Shown piece after piece: positions 4,258 through 48,261 of a stretch of DNA of 56,649 nt. Within the stretch, counting starts at the first letter, position 1. Every line of letters starts with the position of its first letter. The notes under the pieces are model-generated. The model had not been told where the DNA came from, did no database searches, and was given only the letters and a program-made list of their open reading frames with translations. The translations under genes were made by a program, and so were the position numbers. The stretch comes from an uncultured virus (IMG/VR IMGVR_UViG_3300031413_000586) (Duplodnaviria > Heunggongvirae > Uroviricota > Caudoviricetes), in IMG/VR virus record IMGVR_UViG_3300031413_000586; one strand, 5' to 3'.

Positions 4258-5415
4258 TTAGAACATTTTTGAAAAAACTTTCTTGATTATAGGAGCAAAC
4301 ATGATTTTGGCTTCTTTAACTTCTTCAGATTTAACAAATGGAACGTCACGTCTTATAGTGAGTTCTGAAATTTCTGTCATGCTCATAGTTGAGATATCCA
4401 AATTATCGTGTCTAATGCGATGATGTATCTTTTTAACAATATCAAGACGTTCATCAGCAGCAAGGTCTTTCTTGTTGAGCATATTGAAAACCGGTAACAT
4501 TTTTTGAACTTCGCTGGCACTTAATACATGAGAGGTCTTTTGAATCATAACATCAACGTTATCAGCAAGGTATTTTGAGCCTTCACTATTATAGGGACTC
4601 ATTTCCATAAGTTGATTTCTATTTTCAAGCTCTCTTTTGACATTATCAAATAACCTGACACCTAGTTTTTGTCCACGAAATGAATGAGCTACTGAAATAT
4701 ATGACATATAGTTAAGATCCGTCTTTTCAGATTTTGTGATACCTGCAATTCCACATATTTCATAATTATTATGAGCAACAATAACAAATTGTTCTTTTTC
4801 TTTAACAGATTGTCCAAAAAGCTGTATATCATATTGCTTCATTGAATTTTTTAATTGTTCCATTTTTAAATCATCGTTGGCCAATGACTCGTCAACATAC
4901 GCCAATTTTTGAAATTTTAATATATCCTGATAATTCGAATTTTCATCGGGTGTTACCACAGTATAATTAACGGAATGACGTTCCTTCAAGTGGAGTGATT
5001 GTTTTATAGGGTTTGATTCAAAAATAATTTTATAAAAATCGTCTTTATCTTTTAATACATTGATGATGTCATTATAAAGGTAGGATATTTTAATACTTTG
5101 CATTGCCAAACCTTTACCCGATGTGATTTGACCTAACTCATCAAAGAAAATACCCGCATTTCTATAGGTGCTGCTGCCAAGGTATTTGTCATCGGTAGGC
5201 ATCCTAAGATAATAAATTTGGTCGTTATCGTTCTTTTCTTTTACCAGTTGGGTTCTATAGAGTCTTTCAAAATAGTAGGAATTTAATATTTTATGAAGTA
5301 CAGCATTAAGTTCAAAACTATACAATGCTTTTTCTTCTATACTGAGATCTTTAATGGGTTTTACAAAATTTTCAAATGTATCAAGTATATCTTTTTCAAA
5401 CTTTCCAAAATTCAT
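4258..5415 (-). CDS. GNAT-family acetyltransferase domain protein, paralog of 34997..36262
   Basis: ISVAHSFRGQKLGVRLF acetyl-CoA motif A; LHKILNSYYFERLY matches paralog LHTIINSYYFENLY. Confidence 0.75.
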   Translation of the reverse strand: MNFGKFEKDILDTFENFVKPIKDLSIEEKALYSFELNAVLHKILNSYYFERLYRTQLVKEKNDNDQIYYLRMPTDDKYLGSSTYRNAGIFFDELGQITSGKGLAMQSIKISYLYNDIINVLKDKDDFYKIIFESNPIKQSLHLKERHSVNYTVVTPDENSNYQDILKFQKLAYVDESLANDDLKMEQLKNSMKQYDIQLFGQSVKEKEQFVIVAHNNYEICGIAGITKSEKTDLNYMSYISVAHSFRGQKLGVRLFDNVKRELENRNQLMEMSPYNSEGSKYLADNVDVMIQKTSHVLSASEVQKMLPVFNMLNKKDLAADERLDIVKKIHHRIRHDNLDISTMSMTEISELTIRRDVPFVKSEEVKEAKIMFAPIIKKVFSKMF

Positions 5416-6840: not shown

Positions 6841-7653
6841 ATGTTAAAGAAAATTTTAGACATTAAGAATAAATTTGATAAAAAGCAATCTACAACTGTT
6901 TTACCAGAAAATTTTAAACCTAAAATTACTATATTTACGGGAGCAGGCATTTCCCGTGAGAGTGGTCTTGAAACATTTAGAGACAGTGATGGGCTTTGGA
7001 ATAACTATTCTATTGCAGAAGTAGCAACCGCTTCTGCCATAAAAAATAATTTTGAGAAAGCAAATGATTTTTACAATGCTAGAAGAAGAGAGGTGATTAA
7101 TGCTCAGCCTAATATGGCTCATAGACTTATCAAGCAACTGGAAGAATATTTTAATGTCGTTGTGATCACTCAAAATGTTGATAATCTGCATGAAAAAGCA
7201 GGTAGCCAGAAAGTACTCCATTTGCATGGTGAAATCATGAAATCACGACCTATTGCAAATACTAAAATTACATATGATCAACATAAAGATATTCAAATTG
7301 GTGATAGATGTCAGGTCAGTAATTCTCAGCTAAGACCTTTTATAGTATTGTTTGATGAGCTTTTGGATAAAGACATTTATTATGAATCAAGAAAACATAT
7401 TAGAGAATCTGATATTTTAATTGTGATTGGCAGTAGTTTAACAGTAGAACCGGCAGCATCACTTATAGCAGAAGGTTTTTCTTTAAGAGATTTCTATTTA
7501 ATTGATCCAAAAGAAGTAGAAATGAAATATAGGGCGAACTACAATCACATAAAACAAATCGCCAGTGCTGGATTGGAACAACTAACACCCGATTTGATAA
7601 ATCAATCAATCCAGTTAAAAAAACTTTTTGAAAAAGAAAAAGGAGCTTTATAG
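6841..7653 (+). CDS. cobB: Sir2/CobB NAD-dependent deacylase
   Basis: FTGAGISRESGLETFR, QPNMAH, ITQNVDNLHEKAG, HLHGE, LRPFIVLFDE, IGSSLTVEPAASL. Confidence 0.92.
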   Translation: MLKKILDIKNKFDKKQSTTVLPENFKPKITIFTGAGISRESGLETFRDSDGLWNNYSIAEVATASAIKNNFEKANDFYNARRREVINAQPNMAHRLIKQLEEYFNVVVITQNVDNLHEKAGSQKVLHLHGEIMKSRPIANTKITYDQHKDIQIGDRCQVSNSQLRPFIVLFDELLDKDIYYESRKHIRESDILIVIGSSLTVEPAASLIAEGFSLRDFYLIDPKEVEMKYRANYNHIKQIASAGLEQLTPDLINQSIQLKKLFEKEKGAL

Positions 7654-12789: not shown

Positions 12790-13251
12790 TTAAACACATT
12801 GAAATTTTTTAGTGATTGATCTGATTTCTTCTTTTGTGCATGGACCAATACCAAGAGCAGTAATAATAGGTGAACCGTCAAAATGAGGTGGAAATATATG
12901 ATCTTGATCAACAATCAATGCACAAGGTAAACCAAGAGCGATAGCTTGATTATAGGCTTTAATCAAATGATCGTCATTTTTGGCTTTGAGAGTTACTTTA
13001 GAACCACCTGATTGACGATTTCTGTATTTGGAAACTTTTTCAGGATGTGTTTCAATAGCTGCCATTAAAGCATCGGTATACGCATGTCCAGCTTGTGCAG
13101 AAAGTTTTCCGACAGGCATTTCGAGATCGTTTCGAATGATTGCATAAATATAATGATGGGCATTTTTGTCCGCAGGGACGAATTGTGTGTACTTGCTAAG
13201 AATTTCTTCTTTTGTGATGATTTGGTTTTCTTGATTATCAATCTACAACAT
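12790..13251 (-). CDS. peptidyl-tRNA hydrolase, Pth2 family, with in-frame amber at codon 3
   Basis: YAIIRNDLEMPVGKLSAQAGHA, KVTLK, ITALGIGP Pth2 motifs; first strand lies upstream of ATG 13119; SD AAAGGAG then ATG TTG TAG ATT GAT AAT in frame. Confidence 0.85.
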
Positions 13252-16897: not shown

Positions 16898-17443
16898 ATG
16901 AAAAAATTAATAGGCTGTGGGGTATTGTTTGCAATAGGGTTATTGACAGGTTGTGTGTCAGATTCTAAATCAATTAATCAAATGACATTACCTTCATTTA
17001 CCAATATGGACGGTCGGTTGATTACTGATTGGCAGCAGAAAACGTTGATTGATTTATTGGATGATGATATAGAAATTGATAGAAATCAGAATTATATTTT
17101 ATTAACAGTCCAAAATGAAAAAGTTTTCAATGACACAGATGCAATAACGCTTAAAGAGTCATTCAAGCGACAACTTGATCAAATCATAAGTGTGGTCAAG
17201 GTTAGTAAGAAAAGCAAGATTAAAGTTATTGTAAACAGCGATGACACATTACCAGCAATAGAAAGTTTTGATCAGACCGCAGAACAAGCATTATTAATTG
17301 CTGATTATATTAAATTTAAAGGAGTTGTCGAAGAAAATGTCACTTTCTTTGGTGTCGGTTCTCATCAACCTTTAGCAGATAATTCTACAAAAAATGGTCA
17401 AAAGATTAATCGTCGGCTTGAAATTCAAATATCAAACGATTAA
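16898..17443 (+). CDS. OmpA-family peptidoglycan-binding lipoprotein (divergent)
   Basis: LTGC lipobox; GVGSHQPLADN..GQKINRRLEI. Confidence 0.8.
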   Translation: MKKLIGCGVLFAIGLLTGCVSDSKSINQMTLPSFTNMDGRLITDWQQKTLIDLLDDDIEIDRNQNYILLTVQNEKVFNDTDAITLKESFKRQLDQIISVVKVSKKSKIKVIVNSDDTLPAIESFDQTAEQALLIADYIKFKGVVEENVTFFGVGSHQPLADNSTKNGQKINRRLEIQISND

Positions 17444-17486
17444 ATATAGTAACATCTAATTCAATTAACTAAGACAGGAGAGAAGT

Positions 17487-18137
17487 ATGCGTAAAATTAC
17501 AGTATTAGCAGTATTGATATCAGCAATTGTAATGGGTGGTTGTACAACAAATCCATATTCGGGAGAAAGTCAAACAGCAAAAAGTGCTAAGTACGGGGGC
17601 TTTGGAGCATTAGGTGGTGCGGCTGTAGGTGCGTTGGCTGGTGGCAAGAAGGGTGCGTTGATTGGTGCTGCTCTAGGCGGTTCAGCAGGTGCTGGATATG
17701 GTTACTATACAGATGTTCAAGAAAAGAAATTGAGAGATTCCTTACAAGGTACAGGTGTTCAAGTAGCCAGAGAAGGCAATAACCTTTCACTTGTAATGCC
17801 GGGAAATATTACATTTGAAACAGGCAATGCAAATATGTCATCTTCATTTTATCCAACATTGAATTCTATTGTCACTGTATTGAAAGAATATAAAGATAGC
17901 ACTATCAAGGTAAACGGTCATACTGATAACTCGGGCAATTCTGATAAAAATCAGGTGCTTTCAGAACAAAGAGCCGCTTCTGTTGCCAATTACATTATAG
18001 CACAGGGTGTGAGTGCCCAAAGAGTCCAATCAACAGGTTATGGATCTCGTTATCCAGTTGCTGATAATAGTTCAGAAAGTGGAAAGCAATCCAATCGTCG
18101 TGTTGAAATACAAATCATTAATAGTCAGCAGGGTTAA
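17487..18137 (+). CDS. OmpA-family lipoprotein with glycine zipper (YiaD-like)
   Basis: MGGC lipobox, Gly zipper, GHTDNSG..NQVLSEQRAASV..GYGSRYPVADN..NRRVEI. Confidence 0.92.
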   Translation: MRKITVLAVLISAIVMGGCTTNPYSGESQTAKSAKYGGFGALGGAAVGALAGGKKGALIGAALGGSAGAGYGYYTDVQEKKLRDSLQGTGVQVAREGNNLSLVMPGNITFETGNANMSSSFYPTLNSIVTVLKEYKDSTIKVNGHTDNSGNSDKNQVLSEQRAASVANYIIAQGVSAQRVQSTGYGSRYPVADNSSESGKQSNRRVEIQIINSQQG

Positions 18138-18139
18138 TC

Positions 18140-18793
18140 ATGTTTAAACTTAATGTTTTATCCACTTGTATGTTAATACTAATGCTGAGCGGATGTACGA
18201 CATCAACCTATACATATACGCAGCAAACTGGATTTATAGATGATGCCGGAAATCCAGTGCCCTCTTCCATTCCAGTAATCGATGCTGGAAGTCAGTCTGA
18301 TATGTCAGCGACTTCCACTGTTGGAAATGGTTTGTTACCTGTGACATCTGTATCCAATGTTGCTTATGATCCAAGCTTTGCAGCTTATGTTGAATCGCAA
18401 GAGTCAGCCATTCGTACTCAATTGGAAAAGACAGGTATGCAAGTTATTAAAAAAGGTGATGATCTCTTTTTGTATATGTCAACCACTGATGCTTTTAGTT
18501 ATAATGGTTATCAATTAACAACTTATGGATACAACACGCTTGATAAGATAGCTTATTTTCTACAAGATTACGACAATAACAAAACGACTTTTCATGTAGG
18601 TGCTTATAATGGTCCTTTTAATAAAGATATGACATTAAATGATATCAGAGCACGAGTGACTACAGATTATCTGTTAGCTAAACATGTAGTTAGTGAGCAA
18701 ATTACTTATTCGACAAACACATCTATTCCATTAACGGGTGTTAATCCTAATGATGGGTACATTGAGATTAAAATAATCAATGTGAACAAGTAA
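18140..18793 (+). CDS. degenerate OmpA-like lipoprotein
   Basis: LSGC lipobox; YVESQESAIRTQLEKTGMQVIKKGDDL matches the YiaD linker; LNDIRARV. Confidence 0.65.
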   Translation: MFKLNVLSTCMLILMLSGCTTSTYTYTQQTGFIDDAGNPVPSSIPVIDAGSQSDMSATSTVGNGLLPVTSVSNVAYDPSFAAYVESQESAIRTQLEKTGMQVIKKGDDLFLYMSTTDAFSYNGYQLTTYGYNTLDKIAYFLQDYDNNKTTFHVGAYNGPFNKDMTLNDIRARVTTDYLLAKHVVSEQITYSTNTSIPLTGVNPNDGYIEIKIINVNK

Positions 18794-18910: not shown

Positions 18911-19017
18911 TATGAAGTTTTCTACATTATAGAAGCATGAAATTTTAATCTTGGGTCCATTCGCCTATTGACTTTGACTGGTTAAAAGTTAATATTTTAA
19001 TAGCCTTGGAGATAAAA

Positions 19018-19554
19018 ATGAAACAAAAATTAAAGATTTTTTCAGTATTAACATTAGCAGTAATAGCTGCTGGTTGTTCATCCGTTACCAATCACTTCGC
19101 TAGTCATGTGGAAAAAGAACCTACACTGAATGGCTTAAAGTGGTCTACCAATGAAAGTAAAGTTTACTTAAGAACAATGTATGTACAAGCAGATTTTCAA
19201 GAAAATGGTCAAAAACGTGAGTTCAAAGATTATGACTACACACAGGAAACATCACCATGTACAGCCATCAAGAAATACAGCCCACGAACAAATGTTTATA
19301 CTATAGAACATGATAAAAAAACACTTTCTTTTGAATGTCGTCCGTATTTCAGCTATGATCAGCCTGACTTAAGAAGACTTTACTTATTGGGTTCAACACG
19401 AGATTGTGATGATAGAACATGGGACTATCAAGCTCCTATGGTAGATAGCTTTTTAGATGTAAAAATGTTATGTAGAAAAAACTCGAAAAAAGATTATAAA
19501 CAAGAAATCGAGTCTACCTATAAAGACTGGGTTAAATTGGGTATTCTTAAATGA
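19018..19554 (+). CDS. putative lipoprotein
   Basis: MKQKLKIFSVLTLAVIAAGC lipobox; GGAG SD. Confidence 0.7.
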   Translation: MKQKLKIFSVLTLAVIAAGCSSVTNHFASHVEKEPTLNGLKWSTNESKVYLRTMYVQADFQENGQKREFKDYDYTQETSPCTAIKKYSPRTNVYTIEHDKKTLSFECRPYFSYDQPDLRRLYLLGSTRDCDDRTWDYQAPMVDSFLDVKMLCRKNSKKDYKQEIESTYKDWVKLGILK

Positions 19555-19729: not shown

Positions 19730-19817
19730 GCTAATTTCATTGGGAGGGATTAGCATAGCTAAACCCTCTTGGCAGATTGTTAAAAGCCTTTGAGGGGATA
19801 CCTTGAAGGCTTTTTTT
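19730..19817 (+). promoter_or_regulatory. putative transcription attenuator (alternative hairpins plus terminator)
   Basis: GCTAATTTC/GGGATTAGC; GAGGGATTAGC/GCTAAACCCTC; CCCTC..GGC/GCC..GAGGG; terminator 19782-19817. Confidence 0.7.
19782..19817 (+). terminator. rho-independent terminator of the attenuator
   Basis: AAAAGCCTTTGAGG-ggata-CCTTGAAGGC followed by T7. Confidence 0.85.
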
Positions 19818-19909
19818 ATGTCTATAATAGATAGGTTACTGTTCGATCTAAATAAATGTATATTGTTGATTTTAAAGTAAAAAATTTAAAAATAAATTAA
19901 AAAAAAGTA

Positions 19910-19938
19910 TTGACAATATAAAAAAGAGTTGTTAGAAT
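19910..19938 (+). promoter_or_regulatory. sigma70-like promoter of the tRNA array
   Basis: TTGACA-17 nt-TAGAAT with A-rich UP-like element. Confidence 0.75.
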
Positions 19939-19996
19939 GTTAAACATGAAGAGTTGAGATAGAAAATAAAAAAACAAATCTTCTAGATATAAATAT

Positions 19997-20074
19997 GGGG
20001 GCACATGTTCCAAGGGATGGCGAGTTTGCCTTGCACGCAGACTGTGAAGAGTTCGATTCTCTTTGTCTCCACCA
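19997..20074 (+). tRNA. tRNA-Ala(TGC), atypical D arm
   Basis: GGGGGCA/TGTCTCC acceptor with G3:U70, loop CT-TGC-AC, TTCGATT, ACCA. Confidence 0.8.
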
Positions 20075-20081
20075 AATTTAT

Positions 20082-20156
20082 GGGCTGTTAGTTTAGCTGG
20101 AAAAATATCTGCCTTGCACGCAGAAGTACAGGGTTCGAGTCCCTGACGGTCCACCA
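20082..20156 (+). tRNA. tRNA-Ala(TGC)
   Basis: Canonical cloverleaf, TCTGC-CTTGCAC-GCAGA, G3:U70, ACCA. Confidence 0.92.
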
Positions 20157-20171
20157 GATTAGTAATAATAT

Positions 20172-20248
20172 GTCTGCGTAGCTCAGTTGGATAGAGCATC
20201 CGCCTTCTAAGCGGATGGTCGTTGGTTCGAATCCAACCGCAGACGCCA
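20172..20248 (+). tRNA. tRNA-Arg(TCT)
   Basis: Canonical cloverleaf, TCCGC-CTTCTAA-GCGGA, GCCA. Confidence 0.95.
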
Positions 20249-20256
20249 AATAAAAT

Positions 20257-20333
20257 GGGGCTTTTAGTTTAACGGGGAAAACGTTGATTCATAGCGGATC
20301 ATCAACATGGTTCAAGTCCATGTAGCTCCACCA
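20257..20333 (+). ncRNA. tRNA-like RNA with Ala-type acceptor and aberrant anticodon arm
   Basis: GGGGCT/AGCTCC-ACCA (G3:U70), D stem GTTT/AAAC, T arm CATGG-TTCAAGT-CCATG; anticodon arm lacks a canonical 7-nt U33 loop. Confidence 0.65.
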
Positions 20334-20342
20334 GATTATTAT

Positions 20343-20413
20343 GGGGTTTTAGTTTAATAGGAAAACGCTGGGGAAACCCGGAATTGTAAGGTCGAAACTT
20401 ACAGACTCCACCA
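20343..20413 (+). ncRNA. anticodon-less tRNA-Ala mimic (GAAA tetraloop)
   Basis: GGGGTTT/AGACTCC-ACCA, D stem GTTT/AAAC, CTGGG-GAAA-CCCGG, T arm GTAAG-GTCGAAA-CTTAC. Confidence 0.75.
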
Positions 20414-20419
20414 CTTTAT

Positions 20420-20495
20420 GTTCTCATAGCTCAACTGGAAGAGCAATGACCTTCTAAGTCATAGGTTGTAGGTTCGAGTCCTACTGGGAATACCA
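20420..20495 (+). tRNA. tRNA-Arg(TCT)
   Basis: Cloverleaf, ATGAC-CTTCTAA-GTCAT, ACCA. Confidence 0.92.
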
Positions 20496-20501
20496 AATTG
20501 T

Positions 20502-20578
20502 GTCCGTGTAGCTCAGATGGATAGAGCATCTGCCTCCTAAGTGGAAGGTCATAGGTTCGAATCCTATTACGGACACCA
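20502..20578 (+). tRNA. tRNA-Arg(CCT)
   Basis: Cloverleaf, TCTGC-CTCCTAA-GTGGA, ACCA. Confidence 0.92.
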
Positions 20579-20658
20579 AATACGGGGACTTATCTATAAA
20601 GGATAGGTATTATTGAAATCGTTGGGTTGGGATATTCAATAGAATTAAAGTTGTATAT

Positions 20659-20735
20659 GGGATTTTAGCTCAGTTGGTTAGAGCATCCGACTCATAATCG
20701 GCAGGCCGTAGGTTCAAGTCCTACAAGTCCCACCA
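20659..20735 (+). tRNA. tRNA with CAT anticodon, probably tRNA-Ile2 (lysidine, reads AUA)
   Basis: Cloverleaf, CCGA-CTCATAA-TCGG; arm resembles bacterial Ile2; elongator Met not excluded. Confidence 0.85.
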
Positions 20736-20764
20736 ATTTAAGATATTTTATGCTTGGGAGTTAA

Positions 20765-21160
20765 ATGATGGATTATCAAAAGCATATGTTAGATTTAGCT
20801 TGTAATAAAAATTTTAGCGTTGGTGATGAAGTTTTTGTATTGATTGATTACTCATTAGTCTCCGGTTTCATATTAAAAGTCAATGACAAAAGTATTAAAA
20901 TAAAATTGAATGCAAGTTTTGGTGTTAATTCATATGAAAAAAATTGCAAACCAGAAAAAGTAGTTAGAAAAGTTGATTATGCTGTACTAGTTTGGGAATG
21001 CTGGAAAGGGGTCAATGGCCGAGGTGGATATCGATTAGATACAATAATGTATCCAGATTTACAAAAGCCAGTTGATAAAATTAGACCTAATACATATTTG
21101 AATGAAAGTGAATTTGGGGAAGTATCAGATTTTAGTAAAAAGCGGTATTTAGAAGTATAG
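20765..21160 (+). CDS. hypothetical protein inside tRNA array
   Basis: 131 aa ORF, GGGAG SD. Confidence 0.7.
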   Translation: MMDYQKHMLDLACNKNFSVGDEVFVLIDYSLVSGFILKVNDKSIKIKLNASFGVNSYEKNCKPEKVVRKVDYAVLVWECWKGVNGRGGYRLDTIMYPDLQKPVDKIRPNTYLNESEFGEVSDFSKKRYLEV

Positions 21161-21211
21161 TGACAATAAAAAATTGACGATTTTGATATTGTCTGTTTAA
21201 AAAAATATTAT

Positions 21212-21286
21212 GGTTCTGTAGCATAACGGTAAATGCACCCCGCTCATAACGGGATGATTAAGGTTCGATTCCTTGCAGAACCACCA
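21212..21286 (+). tRNA. tRNA with CAT anticodon (Ile2 or Met)
   Basis: GGTTCTG/CAGAACC, CCCG-CTCATAA-CGGG, TTCGATT, ACCA. Confidence 0.85.
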
Positions 21287-21292
21287 ATTAAT

Positions 21293-21414
21293 AGAGAGAT
21301 AGCTTAATGGGAAAGCGGCCTGTGTCAGCAGGTGAGTTACAATCCTTTCAAAGTGTAAATTTTTTATTTATCTTGATTGAGATAGCGATAATGGTTCAAA
21401 TCCATTTCTTTCTG
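21293..21414 (+). ncRNA. tRNA-Asp(GTC)-like RNA with 56-nt variable-region insertion, no encoded CCA
   Basis: AGAGAGA/TCTTTCT+G73, D stem GCTT/AAGC, GCCTG-TGTCAG-CAGGT, T arm AATGG-TTCAAAT-CCATT. Confidence 0.55.
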
Positions 21415-21423
21415 CTTCATTAT

Positions 21424-21499
21424 GGGCTGGTAGTTCAGTTGGGAGAACGCTTGCATGGCATGCAAGAGGTCGTGGGTTCGAACCCCATCCGGTCCACCA
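21424..21499 (+). tRNA. tRNA-Ala(GGC)
   Basis: Canonical cloverleaf, CTTGC-ATGGCAT-GCAAG, G3:U70, ACCA. Confidence 0.95.
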
Positions 21500-21512
21500 A
21501 ATAATTTACAAT

Positions 21513-21587
21513 GGTACTCTAGCATAATGGCTAATGCTATCCGCTCATAACGGATTAATCAAGCGTTGATTCCTTGGATGACTACCA
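21513..21587 (+). pseudogene. degenerate tRNA(CAT), paralog of 21212..21286
   Basis: Intact D and anticodon arms (ATCCG-CTCATAA-CGGAT), mismatched acceptor stem and altered T loop. Confidence 0.6.
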
Positions 21588-21681
21588 AATAAAATAGAGA
21601 GAATTTTATAGTTCTCTTTTTTATTATCTATTTTTTCATTTTTTTGTTATATTAAAGAATATACCTTAAATAGGAGTACAT

Positions 21682-22328
21682 ATGGGCGGATTAGTCAACA
21701 CATCAATTAGATTTGAAGACGGTAAAATATTAAATACATTGATATATACCAGTTCAATAGATATTTTATTTACTTCAAAGGCTTTTTATGAACGTGATAA
21801 AAAATCAATAAAAAAATTGATTTCTAAAATAAAAATGAACACTTGGAAAGATGAAAAATTTGAGGCGGTTGCACCTTATCATTACGGTCTTATTACTGCT
21901 GATTTCATTTCAAACACTATCATTGATATGCAAGGATATTGTAGTATAGGCAAGTATATATTATCCAGTTTTGATTTACCTGCTCTTGAAAATCTGGAAG
22001 TTTATAAAAAATCTAAATATCATGATTATGAAATTTTCTAAACAATCAAGTTTTAGGATTGAGTTATTATGATGAAGACAATAGAAAAATCATCATTAAT
22101 AAAATAGATACCAATCTTGATACATTTGAAGATATTTATGCTTATATTCTTAATATAAATGATATCTATCCTATGTTGAAAATTATATATGATACTCATT
22201 GTAACATTATAAAAATTGAAGATTACGATTGTCAAAGTTATTTAAATACTTTATCTTCCATTAATTATCCATTGACTACAAACGATCATGTTTTATTCAA
22301 TGAATTCATTGACGAGCATTCCAAATGA
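21682..22328 (+). pseudogene. hypothetical gene probably split by a frameshift near 22035
   Basis: ORF 21682..22041 (AGGAG SD) overlaps a -1 frame open from 22032 to 22328 that lacks a good start. Confidence 0.45.
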
Positions 22329-22456
22329 CGATTAATAGAAAATTAATCATATACCTATAAAAGCAGAGAGCAATTTTTACCTAAAATCTATTATCAAAAT
22401 AGGCTTTATTTTTTAGTATTTTAATGCTATAATTGTGTTCTCAAAAGAGGTGTATT

Positions 22457-23113
22457 ATGAAAAATATAGTCAAATTTATGAAAAAAGATTTCATCTCAAA
22501 ACTTGTGATTTGTAATTTTTTATTCATAGCTATCTATAGTAGTTATTATTTTCAGCATCTTTCAAAGATAACAGCAAGTTTTATAGTGGGTATCTTTGTC
22601 TATTCATTGTTCGCCATTTATCGTTTATATACCCAAAAAGTAACTATCAAGTTTGAACATTTTTATCTGCTGCCTATCATTATTTTTTTATATCTAGGCA
22701 TAATGGCTGTTTATACTCGATATAATGATTTGAGTATCGTCAATCCTTCTTCAATACCACAGGCTATTGAAAGAGTTTTTGATTTTTTTGCACTAGCTAT
22801 GCTTGCATATAATGGTTTACTGGTAATGGTCAGTATAATTGCTTCTAAATCAGCACATACATATTTGAAGACCTGTAAACATAACATTCTAGTAATGACA
22901 GGATCAGAACCAGATTTTATTCACTATAAAATGATGAGACATAAAGAAAGCCATTTGGCATTTAGCGATTCAATTTTTACAATAAAAGGCTATATTCATA
23001 ATGGAATGGAACTTTCTTATAGGCAAATTTATGATTATATGAAAGAACAACAACGTACTTTTGAGTCTTTGAGTGAAGATGATTTTAATATTATACACAT
23101 GTTACATATTTAA
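22457..23113 (+). CDS. membrane protein (about 4 TM), C-terminal M(-4) tag
   Basis: Hydrophobic segments; ends DDFNIIHMLHI; GAGG SD. Confidence 0.7.
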   Translation: MKNIVKFMKKDFISKLVICNFLFIAIYSSYYFQHLSKITASFIVGIFVYSLFAIYRLYTQKVTIKFEHFYLLPIIIFLYLGIMAVYTRYNDLSIVNPSSIPQAIERVFDFFALAMLAYNGLLVMVSIIASKSAHTYLKTCKHNILVMTGSEPDFIHYKMMRHKESHLAFSDSIFTIKGYIHNGMELSYRQIYDYMKEQQRTFESLSEDDFNIIHMLHI

Positions 23114-23150
23114 TTGTCTTTCCAAAATAATATAGTATAGTAATCATTAG

Positions 23151-23227
23151 GCTGATATAGCTTAATTGGATAAAGTATTTGATTCCGAATCAAATGAATG
23201 TGGGTTCGAATCCCATTGTCAGCACCA
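23151..23227 (+). tRNA. tRNA-Arg(CCG)
   Basis: GCTGATA/TGTCAGC, TTTGA-TTCCGAA-TCAAA, TTCGAAT, ACCA. Confidence 0.88.
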
Positions 23228-23246
23228 ATTTGACATTCAATATTCA

Positions 23247-23275
23247 TTGACTTTAAACTCTATAAATAGTATAAT
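23247..23275 (+). promoter_or_regulatory. sigma70-like promoter
   Basis: TTGACT-17 nt-TATAAT. Confidence 0.7.
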
Positions 23276-23304
23276 ATGTCAATTAAAAAATAAGGAGCTT
23301 TATC

Positions 23305-23766
23305 ATGGGTGTAAAAAATTATGAAAATAAAAGACGTGTCTACTTTGATATGGATGGAGTGCTGGCTGACTTTGAAAAAGAAGCTATTGACCGTAATATT
23401 CCTTTTCATGAATTAAAAATTCAAGTTGATGCCTATCGTCATCTTCCTATCATGGAAGGAGCTAAGCAAGCAGTAAGACGTGTACGTGATGCAGGTTATG
23501 AAATTTTTGTATTGACCAAAATCCCTAAAAAGAATCCTTATGCTGCATCGGAAAAAATCTTTTGGATTGATGATCACTTTCCTGAATTTGAGGACCGTAT
23601 CATTATTTCGCCAGATAAAGGTGCTCTTGGACAAGAAGGTCACTTCTTGATTGATGATCATCCAGAATGGGCAAATGCTCACAATTTTGAAAATGGTGGT
23701 GGTGTAGTTATCAAATTCGAACGTGATTGGTCAGTTGTTTATCAAGCTCTTGGTATTACTGCTTAA
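23305..23766 (+). CDS. HAD-superfamily 5'(3')-deoxyribonucleotidase-like
   Basis: YFDMDGVLADFE, EKIFWI, DK, LIDDH. Confidence 0.85.
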   Translation: MGVKNYENKRRVYFDMDGVLADFEKEAIDRNIPFHELKIQVDAYRHLPIMEGAKQAVRRVRDAGYEIFVLTKIPKKNPYAASEKIFWIDDHFPEFEDRIIISPDKGALGQEGHFLIDDHPEWANAHNFENGGGVVIKFERDWSVVYQALGITA

Positions 23767-23829: not shown

Positions 23830-24654
23830 ATGAAACGCTTGGATCATGATGCTAATACACAAAAAGAAGTTATTAATTATTTTCAGACAAGAGCAAGACA
23901 ACTGTTGGTTGAGGGATTTATCTGGCAAAAGGATATTATTCCGGCAGTGGGTGGTATTGTTACTACGTTCAAGAAAGATGATGAGTTTTTCAAATCATAT
24001 TATGTGTTTGAATCAGAACGAGGAAAAGGCTATTCTAGTCAAGTAATAGGATCTATTCCTGAGCAGATAGTGACAGTTCCAGATTGTCAAATTGAAAACT
24101 TTTTAAGGGCTAAAGGCAAAGCTTATGTGCTAGCCGGTTCTTTTACCGAATCTACTGAATACAAGGCCATCCAAGCGTTTTATAGTGATGAAAGGGCAGC
24201 ACGCAGTCAATGTTATCTTATGAACCATATCGATGAAGGGTTAATGGTAATGTCATACTTTAATGCTAGTGAGGCAGCAAAGAAAGCTTTCTGCATTCAT
24301 CCATTGGTTCAAAATAGTCAAGATTTAGCTACCAATTGGAACGTTGTAAAAAATCAAGTTTCATCAGAGGTTTTGGGTTTGGCAATGGAGTATCGTAATA
24401 TTGCAAATGCCTATCTGTCTCATAGAGAAATTAAAAGTATAGATGAAATTGAATTGAGTCCAATTGATGATGTAAACTTGATGTTGATTGGTGATAAAGT
24501 TCAAAATTATAAGGACTTTTTAATTTATCATTATGGAACACATCCTAAAAGTGATCGACTTGATGCATATTTCAAAAATTGGCTACTCAAATTGAATGTA
24601 GACGAGTCTGTTTTTGTTGAATTGAGCAATCAACTTAAAGCGATTGAAATTTAA
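23830..24654 (+). CDS. hypothetical protein, GNAT-like N-terminus and HD-like C-terminus
   Basis: YVFESERGKGY; LMNHIDEGL..CIHPLVQ..LIGDKVQN; GAGGA SD. Confidence 0.55.
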   Translation: MKRLDHDANTQKEVINYFQTRARQLLVEGFIWQKDIIPAVGGIVTTFKKDDEFFKSYYVFESERGKGYSSQVIGSIPEQIVTVPDCQIENFLRAKGKAYVLAGSFTESTEYKAIQAFYSDERAARSQCYLMNHIDEGLMVMSYFNASEAAKKAFCIHPLVQNSQDLATNWNVVKNQVSSEVLGLAMEYRNIANAYLSHREIKSIDEIELSPIDDVNLMLIGDKVQNYKDFLIYHYGTHPKSDRLDAYFKNWLLKLNVDESVFVELSNQLKAIEI

Positions 24655-26985: not shown

Positions 26986-28884
26986 ATGTCAGATCTTAAA
27001 AAACATATTGAACGTATTCAACAAGGTGAAGCCGCCGATAACTTTGCGAAATGGTTTAACGATGGCGGTATTTGTGATGAAAACGACTATCCATTGGTAT
27101 TGTACAGTGGGACATTATCTGATTTCGATTCTTTTGATCTCTACCATACACAACCAGAATCTTTTTTTGGACAGGGTTTTTATTTGTCTACCAGCAAACA
27201 AGATGCGGCCTATAACTATGCTTCATTTACAGGGCAAGATTTTGTTAATAAAGTAGCTGAACTCAAATCTAAATTTGAACAAGACACCTTGGACATTCTT
27301 AATGATAATTATCAATATGAAATAAACCATCCCGAAGAATCCGAAATAAATGCTAAAATTGCTTTACTGCATCAACAAGAATCGGAAGGTCTTGATGTTT
27401 TTGAAGATATTTACCGAGCAGTGGAAGAATATCATGTAGAAAAGGTTATCAGTATTACTCATGGTGGAATGGTTATGCCTTTATTAGCTGTTTCAAAGAA
27501 GCTAATTGATGTACAAAGCGAGGTTTTTACACAAGAAGAGACATTTGGCGTAATAGATGAGTTGTTTGAACATTTTTGTAATGAATACGATGAAATATAT
27601 GATGAATTAAGAGATAAAATCATTTCAAAACTATCACCAAATACCCATCAATATACATTTGAATTAGATGAATTTAAAGAAATTGTTAATGATGTCATTG
27701 AATCTATTGACCCTTATGAAGATGACTTGGTAGAAGAAATAAATCAATATGTTGAGGATTTTTTCTCTACTTATAATAATGAAATTGAAGTAAATAATCA
27801 GATGGCTGGCACTTTGAATGAATTCAAAAACAATATGACGAATTTATTAATAGATCATGGTTTTGATAAAGAAGCCGAATCGTTTAGTGAGGCATTATAT
27901 AGAGAGTTTGCCGATGAAGATTCTAATTATATTTCTGTTGCTGCGATTTTGAATAATGATAGAATTATTGAAATATTATGTGATGTACATGTAGAAAGTA
28001 GCAATGTCTACAATCAAACAGTCAGCGGAGTAAGAGCCTTATCAGCATTAGCATTTAGAAAAATGGGTTATGATGGAATCGTAATGAATCCTTATGATTA
28101 TTTTGAAATGAAGCATGTTGATGAAAATACCAAGCACTATATTCTTTTTGATGCTAATAATATAAAAAGTGCAATTGGCAACAATGGTGAATTTTCATTG
28201 ATGGACAATAATATATTGCATCGTATCAGTCACACAGTTCATGCAAATAATAAAAAAGAAAAATCAATGACTTTAGAAGAAGCTGAGCATCTAATTCAGG
28301 ATATTACATTGCACTATAAAAACATGCCTAAATGCAAAGTTTACTCTGATTTAGAATCCGTTCATCCTGCATTGAAAGCTCAAAATCCTGATTTAATAAC
28401 ATGCTCTGGTATTTTCGATCTTTCTCATAATACTGTACATATATTCTTGCCCAACGTTATTGATAAAAAGGATTTCATTAAGACATTGTGTCATGAAGTT
28501 TTTGGTCATATGTCGTTGAGAGAGGTTCTGGCAGAAAAATATGAACCTATCATGAATAAGGTTTACCATTATTATAATAAGAGAGGTGAACTAGAAGATG
28601 TTAAAAAGAACTATATAGATCGTTACAGTCTTGATTTGAATAAATCAAAAGACAGGGCACTGATTGCAGAAGAAAAAATGGCATCTGTGATAGAAGAAAA
28701 TGGATTAAATTCCTTTCCTCTCAAAAAAATTGTGATAGGGGCAATTAGAAACGCAATTAGAACAGTAATCCCTGCTTTAAATATCAATGACAATGATATT
28801 ACTTATATTATGTACAGTGCTCATAAGCATATTTTACTACCACCGCCACGTTTTGACAAGAAACATCCTAAAATGAAACAATAA
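26986..28884 (+). CDS. polyvalent protein: ART-like domain with acidic insert plus zincin metallopeptidase
   Basis: FAKWF..PLVLYSGT..FGQGFYLS..GYDGIV..FDANNIKSAIGNNGEFS; HEVFGH..AEE. Confidence 0.75.
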   Translation: MSDLKKHIERIQQGEAADNFAKWFNDGGICDENDYPLVLYSGTLSDFDSFDLYHTQPESFFGQGFYLSTSKQDAAYNYASFTGQDFVNKVAELKSKFEQDTLDILNDNYQYEINHPEESEINAKIALLHQQESEGLDVFEDIYRAVEEYHVEKVISITHGGMVMPLLAVSKKLIDVQSEVFTQEETFGVIDELFEHFCNEYDEIYDELRDKIISKLSPNTHQYTFELDEFKEIVNDVIESIDPYEDDLVEEINQYVEDFFSTYNNEIEVNNQMAGTLNEFKNNMTNLLIDHGFDKEAESFSEALYREFADEDSNYISVAAILNNDRIIEILCDVHVESSNVYNQTVSGVRALSALAFRKMGYDGIVMNPYDYFEMKHVDENTKHYILFDANNIKSAIGNNGEFSLMDNNILHRISHTVHANNKKEKSMTLEEAEHLIQDITLHYKNMPKCKVYSDLESVHPALKAQNPDLITCSGIFDLSHNTVHIFLPNVIDKKDFIKTLCHEVFGHMSLREVLAEKYEPIMNKVYHYYNKRGELEDVKKNYIDRYSLDLNKSKDRALIAEEKMASVIEENGLNSFPLKKIVIGAIRNAIRTVIPALNINDNDITYIMYSAHKHILLPPPRFDKKHPKMKQ

Positions 28885-34996: not shown

Positions 34997-36262
34997 ATGG
35001 TAGCTATTAATCAAGAAAGCAAACTGGCTCAATGTATTTTTGATGGTTATATTAAAGATATAAAAGAAGCTTTTCATCAAATATATAATAGAGTACCAAA
35101 TTTTAGTGATTCTGAAATTTTAGTGTCCTCCCTACATACTATCATTAATTCTTATTACTTTGAGAATTTATATCAATATTCGAAATTAGGTATTGATGAA
35201 AACAATCAGTATTTTCTATCTGTTATACCCAATAAAAATATAGAAAAAAAATCACTTGATATAGATGGGCAAGAAATATTAATAACAGATTACACAAAAA
35301 AAATCTTAGGTGAATCAAGAAGACGAATGCCACTTAATAATGAACTGCCTATTTCGGCTTTCAAACAATTTGTTGATTTTGGTATTGGTCAAGTAATGCC
35401 CGCTAATATAGATGAAATTTTTATAAGCGATTTTTCTGACATTTTACCCGTCATTGTCCAATTAAAAAAGAATAATCCTAGCTTATATAACGTTATTTTC
35501 GAAGAAAGCGATTTAAAACAAAATCTTATTCTAAAAAATAAAAAAGATCTAGAATTCGATGTTGTACCTGTAGATAAAATAGAAACATATTTCAAAGATA
35601 ATTTAAAAATACAATCGGTTGAGAACGCTTATGAGTTACTAAATACCAATTATGACCTTAGATATCTTGTAAAACAAACTCATAAAAAAGATAGCCCTAA
35701 TTTTATTATTGTAGCCCGTAATGATTTCGAAATAGCAGGAGTTTCGGTTGTTGATCAGAGTAATGACATGATTAATAGCTTAAAAACAGTAAATGGCAAA
35801 AACATGGGTGAACTATTTATGAAAGTGTCTAGTATAATGGTTTCTAAAAATTATAGAGGTCAAGGATTAGGTGTTCAACTGTTTGAAACGGCTATCAATG
35901 AAGCTAAGAAACAAGATTATATACTGATTCGCTCAGAAGCTAGCGATCTAGGTCGTAACTACCTAAAAAGTAATATTGATAATATTGCAAATAGTAAACA
36001 AGTACCGGTTATCAATTCAGAATGGTTTGAAATTTTAAAACCTTTATTGCCTAAAATATTTAACAACTCTTATGAATCAGGAAAAGACACATTGCTCAAT
36101 GTACTAGATGAAATGAGAATTTTCGAGAAGTCTATACATGAAAAAAAAATGAACGCTCGTTCAGGATCTGATTTTTTTGCTATTGAGGATGAGCAACAAG
36201 ATTTCTTTAAAAAACTATCCTCTCGTTATAATACTAAAAGAAATAATAACATAAAGTTATGA
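34997..36262 (+). CDS. GNAT-family acetyltransferase domain protein
   Basis: IMVSKNYRGQGLGVQLFE; paralog of 4258..5415. Confidence 0.78.
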   Translation: MVAINQESKLAQCIFDGYIKDIKEAFHQIYNRVPNFSDSEILVSSLHTIINSYYFENLYQYSKLGIDENNQYFLSVIPNKNIEKKSLDIDGQEILITDYTKKILGESRRRMPLNNELPISAFKQFVDFGIGQVMPANIDEIFISDFSDILPVIVQLKKNNPSLYNVIFEESDLKQNLILKNKKDLEFDVVPVDKIETYFKDNLKIQSVENAYELLNTNYDLRYLVKQTHKKDSPNFIIVARNDFEIAGVSVVDQSNDMINSLKTVNGKNMGELFMKVSSIMVSKNYRGQGLGVQLFETAINEAKKQDYILIRSEASDLGRNYLKSNIDNIANSKQVPVINSEWFEILKPLLPKIFNNSYESGKDTLLNVLDEMRIFEKSIHEKKMNARSGSDFFAIEDEQQDFFKKLSSRYNTKRNNNIKL

Positions 36263-48145: not shown

Positions 48146-48261
48146 TAAAAACGATACTGCTATGAATAAGAGCTTTAATGCTCTTTTTTTATATGGGACT
48201 TTCATTGAAAGATCATAAAATAATGTTAAATTATAAATATAAAACAATAGGAGATTGTTGT

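What the first reader, a model, noticed from the sequence alone, without database searches (positions are those of the whole stretch)
20343..20413. tRNA-Ala mimic with the anticodon loop replaced by a GAAA tetraloop
Seen: complete acceptor stem with G3:U70, A73 and encoded CCA, intact D and T stems, but the anticodon arm is CTGGG-GAAA-CCCGG (20368-20381) and the T loop is GTCGAAA. Established: AlaRS recognises G3:U70 and ignores the anticodon; GNRA tetraloops are stabilising motifs. Intact stems plus a clean tetraloop look selected rather than decayed. Inference: a chargeable but non-decoding RNA. It could be a non-ribosomal alanyl donor, a ribosome-rescue adaptor similar to the tmRNA tRNA-like domain, or a decoy resistant to anticodon nucleases.
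Basis: partly seen in the sequence, partly recalled or inferred. Interest (0 to 1): 0.8.

Follow-up and report, generated by a model that had tools for sequence, protein, structure and literature searches.

The report
Anticodon-less alanine tRNA look-alike in phage
A giant phage carries, inside its tRNA gene row, a perfectly folded alanine-tRNA look-alike whose codon-reading loop is closed into a four-base hairpin, so it cannot decode, and whether it is kept as a chargeable mimic or is a disabled tRNA gene is still open.

Summary
Window 20343-20413 (+) is a 71-base tRNA-shaped gene with all 21 stem pairs standard. It has G1-C72, G2-C71, G3.U70, A73 and an encoded CCA, a 5-bp anticodon stem capped by GAAA, and a T loop GUCGAAA. 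Rfam's tRNA model scores it 43.6 bits, with three loop columns missing; ARAGORN does not call it. A contig from another study keeps the tetraloop, so it is not an assembly error.

It lies in a promoter-driven tRNA row of a huge phage of at least about 460 kb. Six of that row's 14 tRNA-like genes carry the alanine acceptor signature. The same phage encodes a minimal 277-302-aa alanyl-tRNA synthetase homologue. In other phages that enzyme family often sits beside tRNA-Ala genes.

GAAA cannot arise from an alanine anticodon loop by one deletion, and the gene has no close paralogue.

Limits: I found no orthologue with a tetraloop anywhere. The only variant strain shows two structure-neutral changes, and the row also holds clearly decayed tRNA copies.

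Best reading (about 0.5): an expressed, probably alanylatable, non-decoding tRNA mimic that acts through its acceptor end. Main rival (about 0.35): a disabled tRNA gene.

The parts
20343..20413 (+). whole tRNA-Ala look-alike gene (71 nt, CCA encoded)
   Evidence: Rfam RF00005 43.6 bits. Cloverleaf is the minimum-energy fold. Only 4-nt-loop cloverleaf among 121. Kept in the run X4 contig.
20343..20349 (+). acceptor stem, 5' strand GGGGTTT (G3 at 20345)
   Evidence: Read from the sequence. Pairs with 20403-20409.
20403..20409 (+). acceptor stem, 3' strand AGACTCC (U70 at 20407)
   Evidence: Read from the sequence. Gives G3.U70 and U6.G67 wobbles and five Watson-Crick pairs.
20410..20413 (+). discriminator A73 and encoded CCA
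   Evidence: Read from the sequence.
20352..20366 (+). D arm GTTT-AATAGGA-AAAC, with G18 G19 kept
20368..20381 (+). sealed anticodon arm CTGGG-GAAA-CCCGG (tetraloop 20373-20376)
   Evidence: Run X4 has 20378 C>T, which keeps the pair as G.U.
20386..20402 (+). T arm GTAAG-GTCGAAA-CTTAC, with G in place of U54 and A in place of U60
   Evidence: Alignment to RF00005.
19910..19938 (+). promoter-like site TTGACA-17-TAGAAT with TG, heading the tRNA row
   Evidence: Consensus scan, 11 of 12. It follows a terminator-like hairpin at 19782-19814. Function is inferred.
20257..20333 (+). neighbouring alanine-type look-alike 'b'
   Evidence: ARAGORN calls it tRNA-Leu(tag). Rfam scores it 27.1 bits, below the cut-off. 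It has G3.U70, A73 and CCA. Its loop CAUAGCG lacks U33 and folds as a 5-nt loop. Its first 25 bases resemble the candidate's.
19999..20074 (+). first gene of the row: variant tRNA-Ala(UGC) 'a' with a reduced D arm and a C4-C69 mismatch
   Evidence: Rfam 30.8 bits. The same acceptor, mismatch and D-arm type recur in L176 5841-5912, directly behind that phage's mini-AlaRS gene.
20082..20156 (+). canonical tRNA-Ala(UGC)
   Evidence: ARAGORN. Rfam 60.2 bits. Third-best match of the candidate's model (31.3 bits), the best being the candidate itself.
21424..21499 (+). canonical tRNA-Ala(GGC)
   Evidence: ARAGORN. Rfam 61.8 bits. Best match of the candidate's model after itself, 36.3 bits.

Best explanation
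The gene makes a tRNA-shaped RNA that derives from tRNA-Ala and cannot read codons.

How it is probably made (inferred): it is transcribed with the other tRNAs from the promoter at 19910-19938. The tRNA-maturing enzymes cut it out, because it keeps the acceptor stem, T arm, D arm and CCA.

How it probably works (inferred, in order of decreasing support):
1. Alanine identity is read from the acceptor stem alone, so the RNA should be alanylated by the host AlaRS or by the phage's own minimal AlaRS.
2. The GAAA cap removes the anticodon, so the ribosome cannot select it, and enzymes that need an anticodon loop have nothing to bind or cut.
3. Its work is therefore done at the acceptor end or through the tRNA body. 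It could carry alanine to a non-ribosomal acceptor, or it could soak up a factor that binds or attacks the acceptor end of tRNA-Ala.

Shown here: the sequence, the fold, the rarity of such a loop, its presence in a second sample, its place in the tRNA row, and the AlaRS homologue in the same phage.

Inferred only: expression, processing, charging and the role.
For: - Integrity. All 21 stem pairs are standard, and U8, A14, G18, G19, U55, C56 and A58 are in place. It is one of only 121 perfect cloverleaves in 1.75 Mb of held sequence and the only one with a 4-nt loop.
- Identity. It has the full alanine acceptor set G1-C72, G2-C71, G3.U70 and A73 (PMC9976931 passages). A viral mini-AlaRS is reported to charge an acceptor-stem microhelix as well as tRNA-Ala (PMC10036535 abstract).
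- Origin of the loop. GAAA is not a subsequence of an alanine loop of the form NU-NGC-RN, so one deletion cannot make it. The anticodon and T stems differ from every other tRNA of the window, and BLAST of the gene against all loci held finds only itself. Its nearest relatives by covariance model are the phage's own tRNA-Ala genes, at 36.3 and 31.3 bits against 105.7 for itself. So it is not a fresh copy with a fresh deletion.
- Second sample. A contig from another study keeps the tetraloop, and both of its differences preserve the fold.
- Context. Six of the 14 tRNA-like genes in the row 19999-21587 have the alanine acceptor: 19999, 20082, 20257, 20343 and 21424. Alanine codons make up only 4.8% of 5114 codons sampled.
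- Phage AlaRS. The phage record G001 encodes an AlaRS catalytic-fragment homologue. It scores PF01411 59.6 bits and matches PDB AlaRS chains at E 6.6e-11. The AlphaFold model has pLDDT 83.3, and Foldseek's top hits are AlaRS catalytic fragments at E 1.8e-13. In other phages this gene often lies next to tRNA-Ala genes.
- A low Rfam score does not prove decay here. The 30.8-bit gene at 19999 has a counterpart beside the mini-AlaRS gene of another phage.
- Other phages. Alanine-type look-alikes with non-canonical bodies occur in L017 1501-1568 and in L199 4908-4972. The L199 one lies 29 nt upstream of a mini-AlaRS gene.
- Precedent. A phage enzyme of the GNAT fold, Mu Mom, uses Gly-tRNA-Gly as co-substrate outside translation (PMC13219725 passages).
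Against: - No orthologue with a tetraloop was found. Viral contigs gave 0 matches to two patterns, and none of 24 loci with the shared 5' half has the arm. Metagenome contigs gave 0 of 12 loci. The 50,697 phage records gave no BLAST match. In 47 whole viral records with a mini-AlaRS, the model found 4 hits, all ordinary tRNAs. So there is no covariation and no proof of selection.
- In the one variant strain, 2 of the 3 differences in 502 bases fall in this 71-base gene. That points to faster change than in the neighbours (about p 0.05 by my arithmetic).
- The same row holds decayed or rearranged tRNA copies: 21513-21587 with a broken T arm, and 21293-21414 with a roughly 55-nt insert and no CCA. 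An abundant related phage in run X7 has the row rearranged. Birth and death of tRNA genes is therefore active here.
- U54 is replaced by G, which would be expected under relaxed constraint too.
- The mini-AlaRS gene is not near the candidate. It lies about 109 kb into G001, and G001 itself starts at window position 23958. L017's record has no mini-AlaRS.
- No Fem-type or MprF-type aminoacyl-tRNA transferase was found in G001.
- No RNA data cover the gene.
Confidence: 0.5

Rival explanations
1. It is a disabled tRNA gene. A tRNA-Ala-type copy in a fast-turnover tRNA row lost its anticodon loop and is drifting. It still looks clean because the loss is fairly recent, or because the tRNA body is weakly protected by the need to keep the row's precursor processable.
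For: - The row and the rest of the phage hold several aberrant tRNA copies. In the window these are 21513-21587 and 21293-21414. In G001 they are 375620-375691, with a 6-nt loop, acceptor mismatches and no CCA, and 389163-389234.
- The related phage in run X7 has the row rearranged.
- No orthologue with a tetraloop was found.
- Two of three strain differences fall in the gene.
- U54 is lost.
- Other phages show tRNA bodies with unrelated middle parts: L184 4004-4093 against L226 3996-4086.
Against: - All 21 pairs and nearly all tertiary bases are intact, with no stem-breaking change.
- The gene has no close paralogue, so it is not a fresh copy.
- GAAA needs more than one mutational step from any alanine loop.
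- Both strain differences keep the fold.
- A neighbouring gene with a low Rfam score proved to have a counterpart in another phage.
Confidence: 0.35
2. It is a processing spacer. The tRNA body is kept only as a handle for RNase P and the 3' trimming enzymes, so that the neighbouring tRNA-Arg genes are released from the long precursor. The RNA itself has no further use.
For: Spacers of only 9 and 6 nt separate it from its neighbours. The acceptor stem, T arm and CCA, the parts those enzymes read (recalled knowledge), are the parts kept.
Against: Each flanking tRNA carries its own processing signals. The related phage in run X7 joins tRNA-Ala directly to tRNA-Arg(CCU) without these genes. This idea does not explain why the complete alanine identity set and the D arm are kept.
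Confidence: 0.08
3. It is a ribosome-rescue adaptor of the tmRNA kind. An alanylated tRNA-like domain enters empty A sites with the help of SmpB.
For: It shares G3.U70, a T arm and the lack of an anticodon with the tmRNA tRNA-like domain (the domain's features are recalled knowledge).
Against: - There is no tmRNA match in the window at Rfam's cut-offs or at E up to 1, and ARAGORN finds no tmRNA.
- There is no room for a coding part.
- The RNA keeps a full D arm and an anticodon stem, where SmpB would sit (recalled).
- G001 has no SmpB, and no tmRNA match over the cut-off.
Confidence: 0.02
4. It is an assembly or sequencing error that dropped three bases from a normal anticodon loop.
For: None beyond the short loop itself.
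Against: An independent contig from another study has the same 4-base loop with no gaps. No alanine anticodon loop gives GAAA by losing three bases.
Confidence: 0.01

Closest known systems
Phage-encoded tRNA-Ala (Rfam RF00005)
   Same: It has the cloverleaf, the alanine acceptor set, an encoded CCA and a place in a tRNA row. Its nearest relatives by model are the phage's own tRNA-Ala(GGC) and tRNA-Ala(UGC).
   Different: It has a 4-nt GAAA loop in place of the 7-nt anticodon loop, and G54 and A60 in the T loop. ARAGORN does not call it.
Acceptor-stem minihelix and microhelix substrates of AlaRS, and the Tupanvirus mini-AlaRS
   Same: Charging depends on the acceptor stem with G3.U70, not on the anticodon. 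[quoted passage not shown] This phage too has a minimal AlaRS homologue.
   Different: Those substrates are laboratory constructs, whereas this is a natural gene with a full tRNA body. The phage enzyme is 277-302 aa, and I have not shown it to be active.
tRNA-like domain of tmRNA (Rfam RF00023)
   Same: Alanine identity through G3.U70, a T arm, and no anticodon (recalled).
   Different: It has no mRNA-like part, it keeps D and anticodon stems, it has no Rfam or ARAGORN match, and the phage record held has no SmpB.
Pseudo-tRNA 'tRNA-Other' of Bacillus cereus
   Same: It is a tRNA-derived RNA said not to function in translation yet to have a cellular effect (PMC3399842; start of the abstract in the search listing).
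   Different: It is chromosomal rather than phage-borne. I did not compare sequences or loops and did not read the paper.
Aminoacyl-tRNA used outside translation: Mu Mom with Gly-tRNA-Gly, and FemX
   Same: A phage GNAT-fold enzyme takes an aminoacyl-tRNA as co-substrate, and the authors state that the 3' end and the amino acid suffice for specificity in such enzymes (PMC13219725 passages).
   Different: Those enzymes use ordinary decoding tRNAs. No such transferase has been identified in this phage. FemAB and LPG_synthase_C are absent from G001. The window's two GNAT paralogues keep an R-G-Q-x-L-G motif that I recall as typical of acetyl-CoA users.
Phage tRNAs with altered anticodon loops that escape anticodon nucleases
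   Same: They are phage tRNA genes shaped by tRNA-targeting host defences (PMC10264068, title and start of abstract).
   Different: Those tRNAs still decode. A search of that paper for pseudo, tRNA-like, shortened, decoy and two other terms found nothing.

Membership tests
tRNA (Rfam RF00005) | Score at or above the family's gathering cut-off | tested here: met
   43.6 bits against 29.
tRNA (Rfam RF00005) | Four-stem cloverleaf with tertiary bases U8, A14, G18 G19, U55 C56 and A58 | tested here: met
   21 of 21 pairs are standard and the bases are present.
tRNA (Rfam RF00005) | Seven-base anticodon loop with U33 and an anticodon | tested here: not met
   The loop is GAAA, with a 3-column gap in the Rfam alignment. 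ARAGORN gives no call.
tRNA (Rfam RF00005) | T loop U54-U55-C56-R57-A58 | tested here: not met
   The loop is G-U-C-G-A-A-A, so position 54 is G.
AlaRS substrates (alanine identity) | G1-C72, G2-C71, G3.U70 and A73 | tested here: met
   Read from the sequence. The rule comes from PMC9976931 passages.
AlaRS substrates (alanine identity) | Is alanylated | not testable with these tools
   Needs an aminoacylation assay.
tmRNA (Rfam RF00023) | Match to the family model or an ARAGORN tmRNA call | tested here: not met
   None in the window at gathering score or at E up to 1, and ARAGORN finds none.
tmRNA (Rfam RF00023) | mRNA-like part that encodes a tag | tested here: not met
   The gene is 71 nt, with tRNA genes 9 nt before and 6 nt after it.
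   Not among the 21 matches with E up to 1 in 19800-23400.
Pseudogene (decaying tRNA copy) | Stem-breaking changes, or loss of identity and processing elements | tested here: not met
   None in the stems, CCA or identity set. Only the loop and U54 are changed.
Pseudogene (decaying tRNA copy) | No conservation of the altered form in relatives | tested here: inconclusive
   One near-identical strain keeps it. No more distant relative holding this locus was found.

The most novel reading that the evidence does not exclude
The candidate, together with its neighbour at 20257-20333, is a dedicated alanine carrier that never enters decoding. It would be charged by the phage's own minimal AlaRS. It would then feed a non-ribosomal alanyl transfer, in the way Mu Mom uses Gly-tRNA. 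Alternatively, it would act as a sponge for host factors that attack the acceptor end of tRNA-Ala. That would make it a natural synthetase and mini-substrate pair outside translation.
Probability: 0.12. Interest if true: 0.9.

Novelty: new variant of a known kind. Interest (0 to 1): 0.55.

Why it matters
If the RNA is made and alanylated, it would be a natural counterpart of the laboratory minihelix substrates of AlaRS. It would then be a tRNA body kept for its acceptor end alone, in a phage that also carries a stripped-down AlaRS. That would give a direct handle on what phage tRNA rows do beyond supplying codons: carrying amino acids for non-ribosomal reactions, or acting as bait in the conflict over tRNAs between phages and bacterial defences.

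Such genes are missed by ARAGORN, so tRNA counts in phage genomes leave them out. If it proves to be a disabled gene, it still records how quickly tRNA rows in huge phages gain and lose members.

Tried and rejected
- Orthologue hunts in viral contigs. An exact 21-mer of the arm gave 0. A degenerate whole-5'-part pattern gave 0. A shared 5'-half pattern gave 24 loci, none with the arm. A 26-mer of the neighbouring tRNA-Ala gave 0.
- Flanking proteins. Neither 20765-21160 nor 19006-19554 has relatives in viral contigs.
- Other collections. The metagenome pattern scan gave 12 loci, all lacking the arm. BLAST of the 71 bases against the phage records gave no match.
- Model R1 of the candidate. Over 47 viral records with a mini-AlaRS it gave 4 hits, all ordinary tRNAs; 3 of the 50 loci sent were not held. 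Over the mini-AlaRS locus of G001 nothing scored below E 1.
- Read laying. Runs X3, X7 and X12 gave no cover over 20349-20405, so they say nothing about the gene or its expression.
- Tetraloop receptor. The window has no TATGG...CCTAAG pair within 80 bases that could dock a GAAA loop.
- Partner enzymes. FemAB, LPG_synthase_C and SmpB were not found in G001. That record lacks window 1-23957.
- The two GNAT paralogues of the window (4258-5415 and 34997-36262) have no informative PDB sequence match.
- The gene neighbourhoods of the bacterial mini-AlaRS copies were uninformative.
- The L184/L226 pair of long look-alikes does not keep G3.U70, and their middle parts are unrelated. I dropped them as support.
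- L017's record and four others have no mini-AlaRS.
- Earlier-findings look-ups by place and by sequence returned nothing.
- Paper searches listed no paper on tRNA-shaped phage genes with a capped anticodon stem. That covers only the library searched.

Full report
**What is there.** The window comes from a huge phage. An IMG/VR record of 437,043 bases (handle G001) is 100% identical to the window from position 23958 onward and lacks the first 23,957 bases. G+C content is about 30%.

After a terminator-like hairpin (19782-19814) and a near-consensus promoter-like site (19910-19938, TTGACA-17-TAGAAT with TG), there is a tight row of tRNA genes on the + strand. ARAGORN tRNA genes in the window. 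Rfam's tRNA model finds 11 at its cut-off and 13 in 19800-23400 at E up to 1.

The finding lies between the ARAGORN calls at 20257-20333 and 20420-20495. It is 9 and 6 bases from them, and ARAGORN does not call it.

- The acceptor stem has seven pairs, including G3.U70 and U6.G67.
- A73 and CCA are encoded.
- The D stem has 4 pairs, and its loop AAUAGGA keeps G18 and G19.
- The anticodon stem has 5 pairs and is closed by GAAA.
- The variable region is AAUU.
- The T stem has 5 pairs, and its loop is GUCGAAA.

Rfam's tRNA model scores it 43.6 bits (cut-off 29). Its alignment leaves three anticodon-loop columns empty and shows G for U54 and A for U60. The minimum-energy fold is this cloverleaf: -20.4 kcal/mol, z -2.03, with 7 of 200 shuffles as good.

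A strict scanner of my own asked for all 21 pairs standard, U8 and a T loop NTCNA.
- 117 with 7-base loops
- 2 with 6-base loops
- 1 with a 9-base loop
- 1 with a 4-base loop, which is this gene

It found none in shuffled sequence. So the stems are as clean as those of the best ordinary tRNAs, and the loop is truly unusual.

**It is not an artefact.** Twenty of the 24 public runs listed hold part of the row. I laid four of them. One contig of run X4, from another study, spans 20192-20693 without gaps and with three differences. The tetraloop is there. The two differences inside the gene are 20367 G>T, at the unpaired hinge position 26, and 20378 C>T, which turns G-C into G.U. The other three runs do not cover the gene and so say nothing about it.

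**Origin.** A covariance model built from the gene scores it 105.7 bits. The next best matches are the phage's own tRNA-Ala(GGC) at 36.3 bits and tRNA-Ala(UGC) at 31.3 bits. Normal tRNA-Ala genes of other organisms share its first 25 bases almost exactly. So it descends from tRNA-Ala.

It is not a fresh copy with a fresh deletion, for three reasons:
- BLAST against everything held finds only itself.
- Its anticodon and T stems are unlike those of any other tRNA of the phage.
- GAAA is not a subsequence of an alanine anticodon loop (NU-NGC-RN), so more than one mutational step lies between them.

**Context that favours a kept, chargeable mimic.**

First, the acceptor carries G1-C72, G2-C71, G3.U70 and A73. 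[quoted passage not shown]

Second, alanine-type acceptors are over-represented in the row. The scanner and the detectors give five: 19999, 20082, 20257, 20343 and 21424. Alanine codons are only 4.8% of 5114 sampled codons.

Third, the phage encodes a minimal AlaRS homologue at G001 108848-109156, in an open frame of 277-302 residues.
- It scores 59.6 bits on PF01411 and matches PDB AlaRS chains at E 6.6e-11. Recognisable counterparts of the AlaRS core motifs are present.
- Its AlphaFold model (pLDDT 83.3, pTM 0.76) is closest to AlaRS catalytic fragments (Foldseek E 1.8e-13, TM 0.66).
- The enzyme belongs to a family of at least 868 proteins of about 250-310 residues.
- The family has 74 loci in viral contigs and 75 in bacterial genomes, chiefly Rhizobium and its kin.
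- In the viral loci ARAGORN often finds tRNA-Ala genes right beside it, as in L160, L198, L201 and L209.
- A viral mini-AlaRS without editing and C-Ala domains has been reported to charge both tRNA-Ala and an acceptor microhelix (PMC10036535, abstract).

Fourth, the row's first gene (19999-20074) scores only 30.8 bits and looks decayed. Yet it has a counterpart with the same acceptor, the same C4-C69 mismatch and the same reduced D arm directly behind the mini-AlaRS gene of another phage (L176 5841-5912). A low score is therefore no proof of decay in these phages.

Fifth, alanine-type look-alikes with non-canonical bodies turned up in other phages.
- L199 4908-4972 is 65 nt long, has lost half its anticodon arm, scores 46.3 bits on Rfam, and lies 29 nt upstream of a mini-AlaRS gene.
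- L017 1501-1568 has an 8-nt loop and a 3-nt T loop.
- A non-alanine look-alike with a 4-bp stem and a UGAU loop sits in L198 2887-2954.

**Context that favours decay.** I found no orthologue with a capped stem in any collection. There is therefore no covariation.

The row also holds plainly damaged copies. One is 21513-21587, with a broken T arm. Another is 21293-21414, with a 4- to 6-base loop, a roughly 55-base insert and no CCA.

G001 holds two tRNA-Phe derivatives with 6-base loops, one of which lacks CCA. The 14 homologues found in other phages all have 7-base loops. For one of the two, ARAGORN reads a 4-base anticodon instead.

An abundant related phage in run X7 has the row in another order. 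Two of the three strain differences fall in the candidate. The mini-AlaRS gene is far from the row, and L017's record has none.

**Roles.** The tmRNA-like role is the least likely.
- There is no model match.
- There is no room for a coding part.
- G001 has no SmpB and no tmRNA match over the cut-off.

A decoy against anticodon nucleases makes little sense without an anticodon loop to bind. A decoy could act only on factors that read the acceptor end or the tRNA body. Recent titles in the library show that such defences exist, for example Cas12a3 cutting tRNA tails (PMC12851939, listing only).

An alanyl-donor role has a precedent in Mu Mom, a GNAT-fold enzyme that uses Gly-tRNA-Gly to modify DNA (PMC13219725, passages). 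But I found no Fem-type or MprF-type transferase in G001. The window's two GNAT paralogues look like acetyl-CoA users, by a motif that I recall.

**Verdict.** This is a real, rare, cleanly folded tRNA-Ala look-alike that cannot decode. I put 0.5 on a kept, probably alanylatable mimic that works through its acceptor end. I put 0.35 on a disabled tRNA gene, 0.08 on a mere processing handle, and little on the rest.

Earlier notes of this scan list similar capped-loop look-alikes in other phages. I treat them as leads.

The paper searches listed no description of this kind of gene, which holds only for the library searched. From memory alone, and unchecked here, I note two parallels: the stable tRNA-like RNAs of unknown function in the tRNA regions of T4 and T5, and the non-proteinogenic tRNA-Gly of staphylococci.

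Noticed in passing
G001:C1:108848-109156 (L083 4831-5664); not in the window: The phage encodes a minimal AlaRS homologue of 277-302 aa with an AlaRS catalytic-fragment fold. It belongs to an unnamed family of at least 868 proteins. The family has 74 viral loci, often beside tRNA-Ala genes, and 75 bacterial loci, mostly in Rhizobium and its kin. NCBIfam matches only the alaS models, far below their cut-offs.
   Followed up: partly
window 19999-20074 and L176 5841-5912: A variant tRNA-Ala(UGC) with a reduced D arm and a C4-C69 mismatch. The same type lies directly behind the mini-AlaRS gene of another phage, with different anticodon and T stem sequences.
   Followed up: partly
window 20257-20333: An alanine-type acceptor (G3.U70, A73, CCA) joined to a loop CAUAGCG without U33. 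The loop folds as a 5-nt loop. ARAGORN calls the gene tRNA-Leu(tag), and Rfam scores it 27.1 bits.
   Followed up: partly
window 21293-21414: A 122-nt tRNA-like gene with the anticodon arm GCCUGU-GUCA-GCAGGU, a roughly 55-nt A+T-rich insert that repeats part of its own 5' end, and no CCA. Run X7 has about 100 other letters in place of 21321-21417.
   Followed up: no
window 21513-21587: A tRNA-Met-like copy with a degenerate T arm (Rfam 36.6 bits). ARAGORN misses it.
   Followed up: no
G001 375620-375691 and 389163-389234: Two tRNA-Phe derivatives with 6-base loops, CAGAAA and UAGAAG, and fully different but paired anticodon stems. ARAGORN reads the second as having a 4-base anticodon, agaa. 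The 14 homologues found in other phages have normal 7-base GAA loops.
   Followed up: partly
G001 375947-376020: A tRNA with anticodon CUA, an amber suppressor type that ARAGORN labels tRNA-Pyl. Only 2 TAG codons occur in the 5114 codons sampled from window ORFs.
   Followed up: no
window 12790-13119 (-): A phage-encoded peptidyl-tRNA hydrolase of the PTH2 type (Pfam 65.5 bits).
   Followed up: no
window 4258-5415 (-) and 34997-36262 (+): Two paralogous proteins (26% identity, E 5e-18). Each has an unknown N-terminal half and a GNAT domain.
   Followed up: partly
window 48178-50130 (+), 6841-7653 (+), 26986-28884 (+), 16898-18793 (+): An MFS transporter fused to an acyltransferase, a SIR2-family protein, a 632-aa protein with an ART-PolyVal domain, and three OmpA-domain proteins in a row.
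   Followed up: no
L199 4908-4972; L198 2887-2954; L017 1501-1568: Other phages carry tRNA look-alikes that cannot decode normally. One is an alanine-type gene with a truncated anticodon arm next to a mini-AlaRS gene. One is a 68-nt gene with a 4-bp stem and a UGAU loop. One is an alanine-type gene with an 8-nt loop and a 3-nt T loop.
   Followed up: partly
L184 4374-4460 and L177 3585-3671: 87-nt tRNA genes whose anticodon loop holds a 14-nt hairpin. Without the hairpin, the loop would read AUGAAAA, a Phe GAA loop. ARAGORN labels them tRNA-Ala(agc).
   Followed up: no
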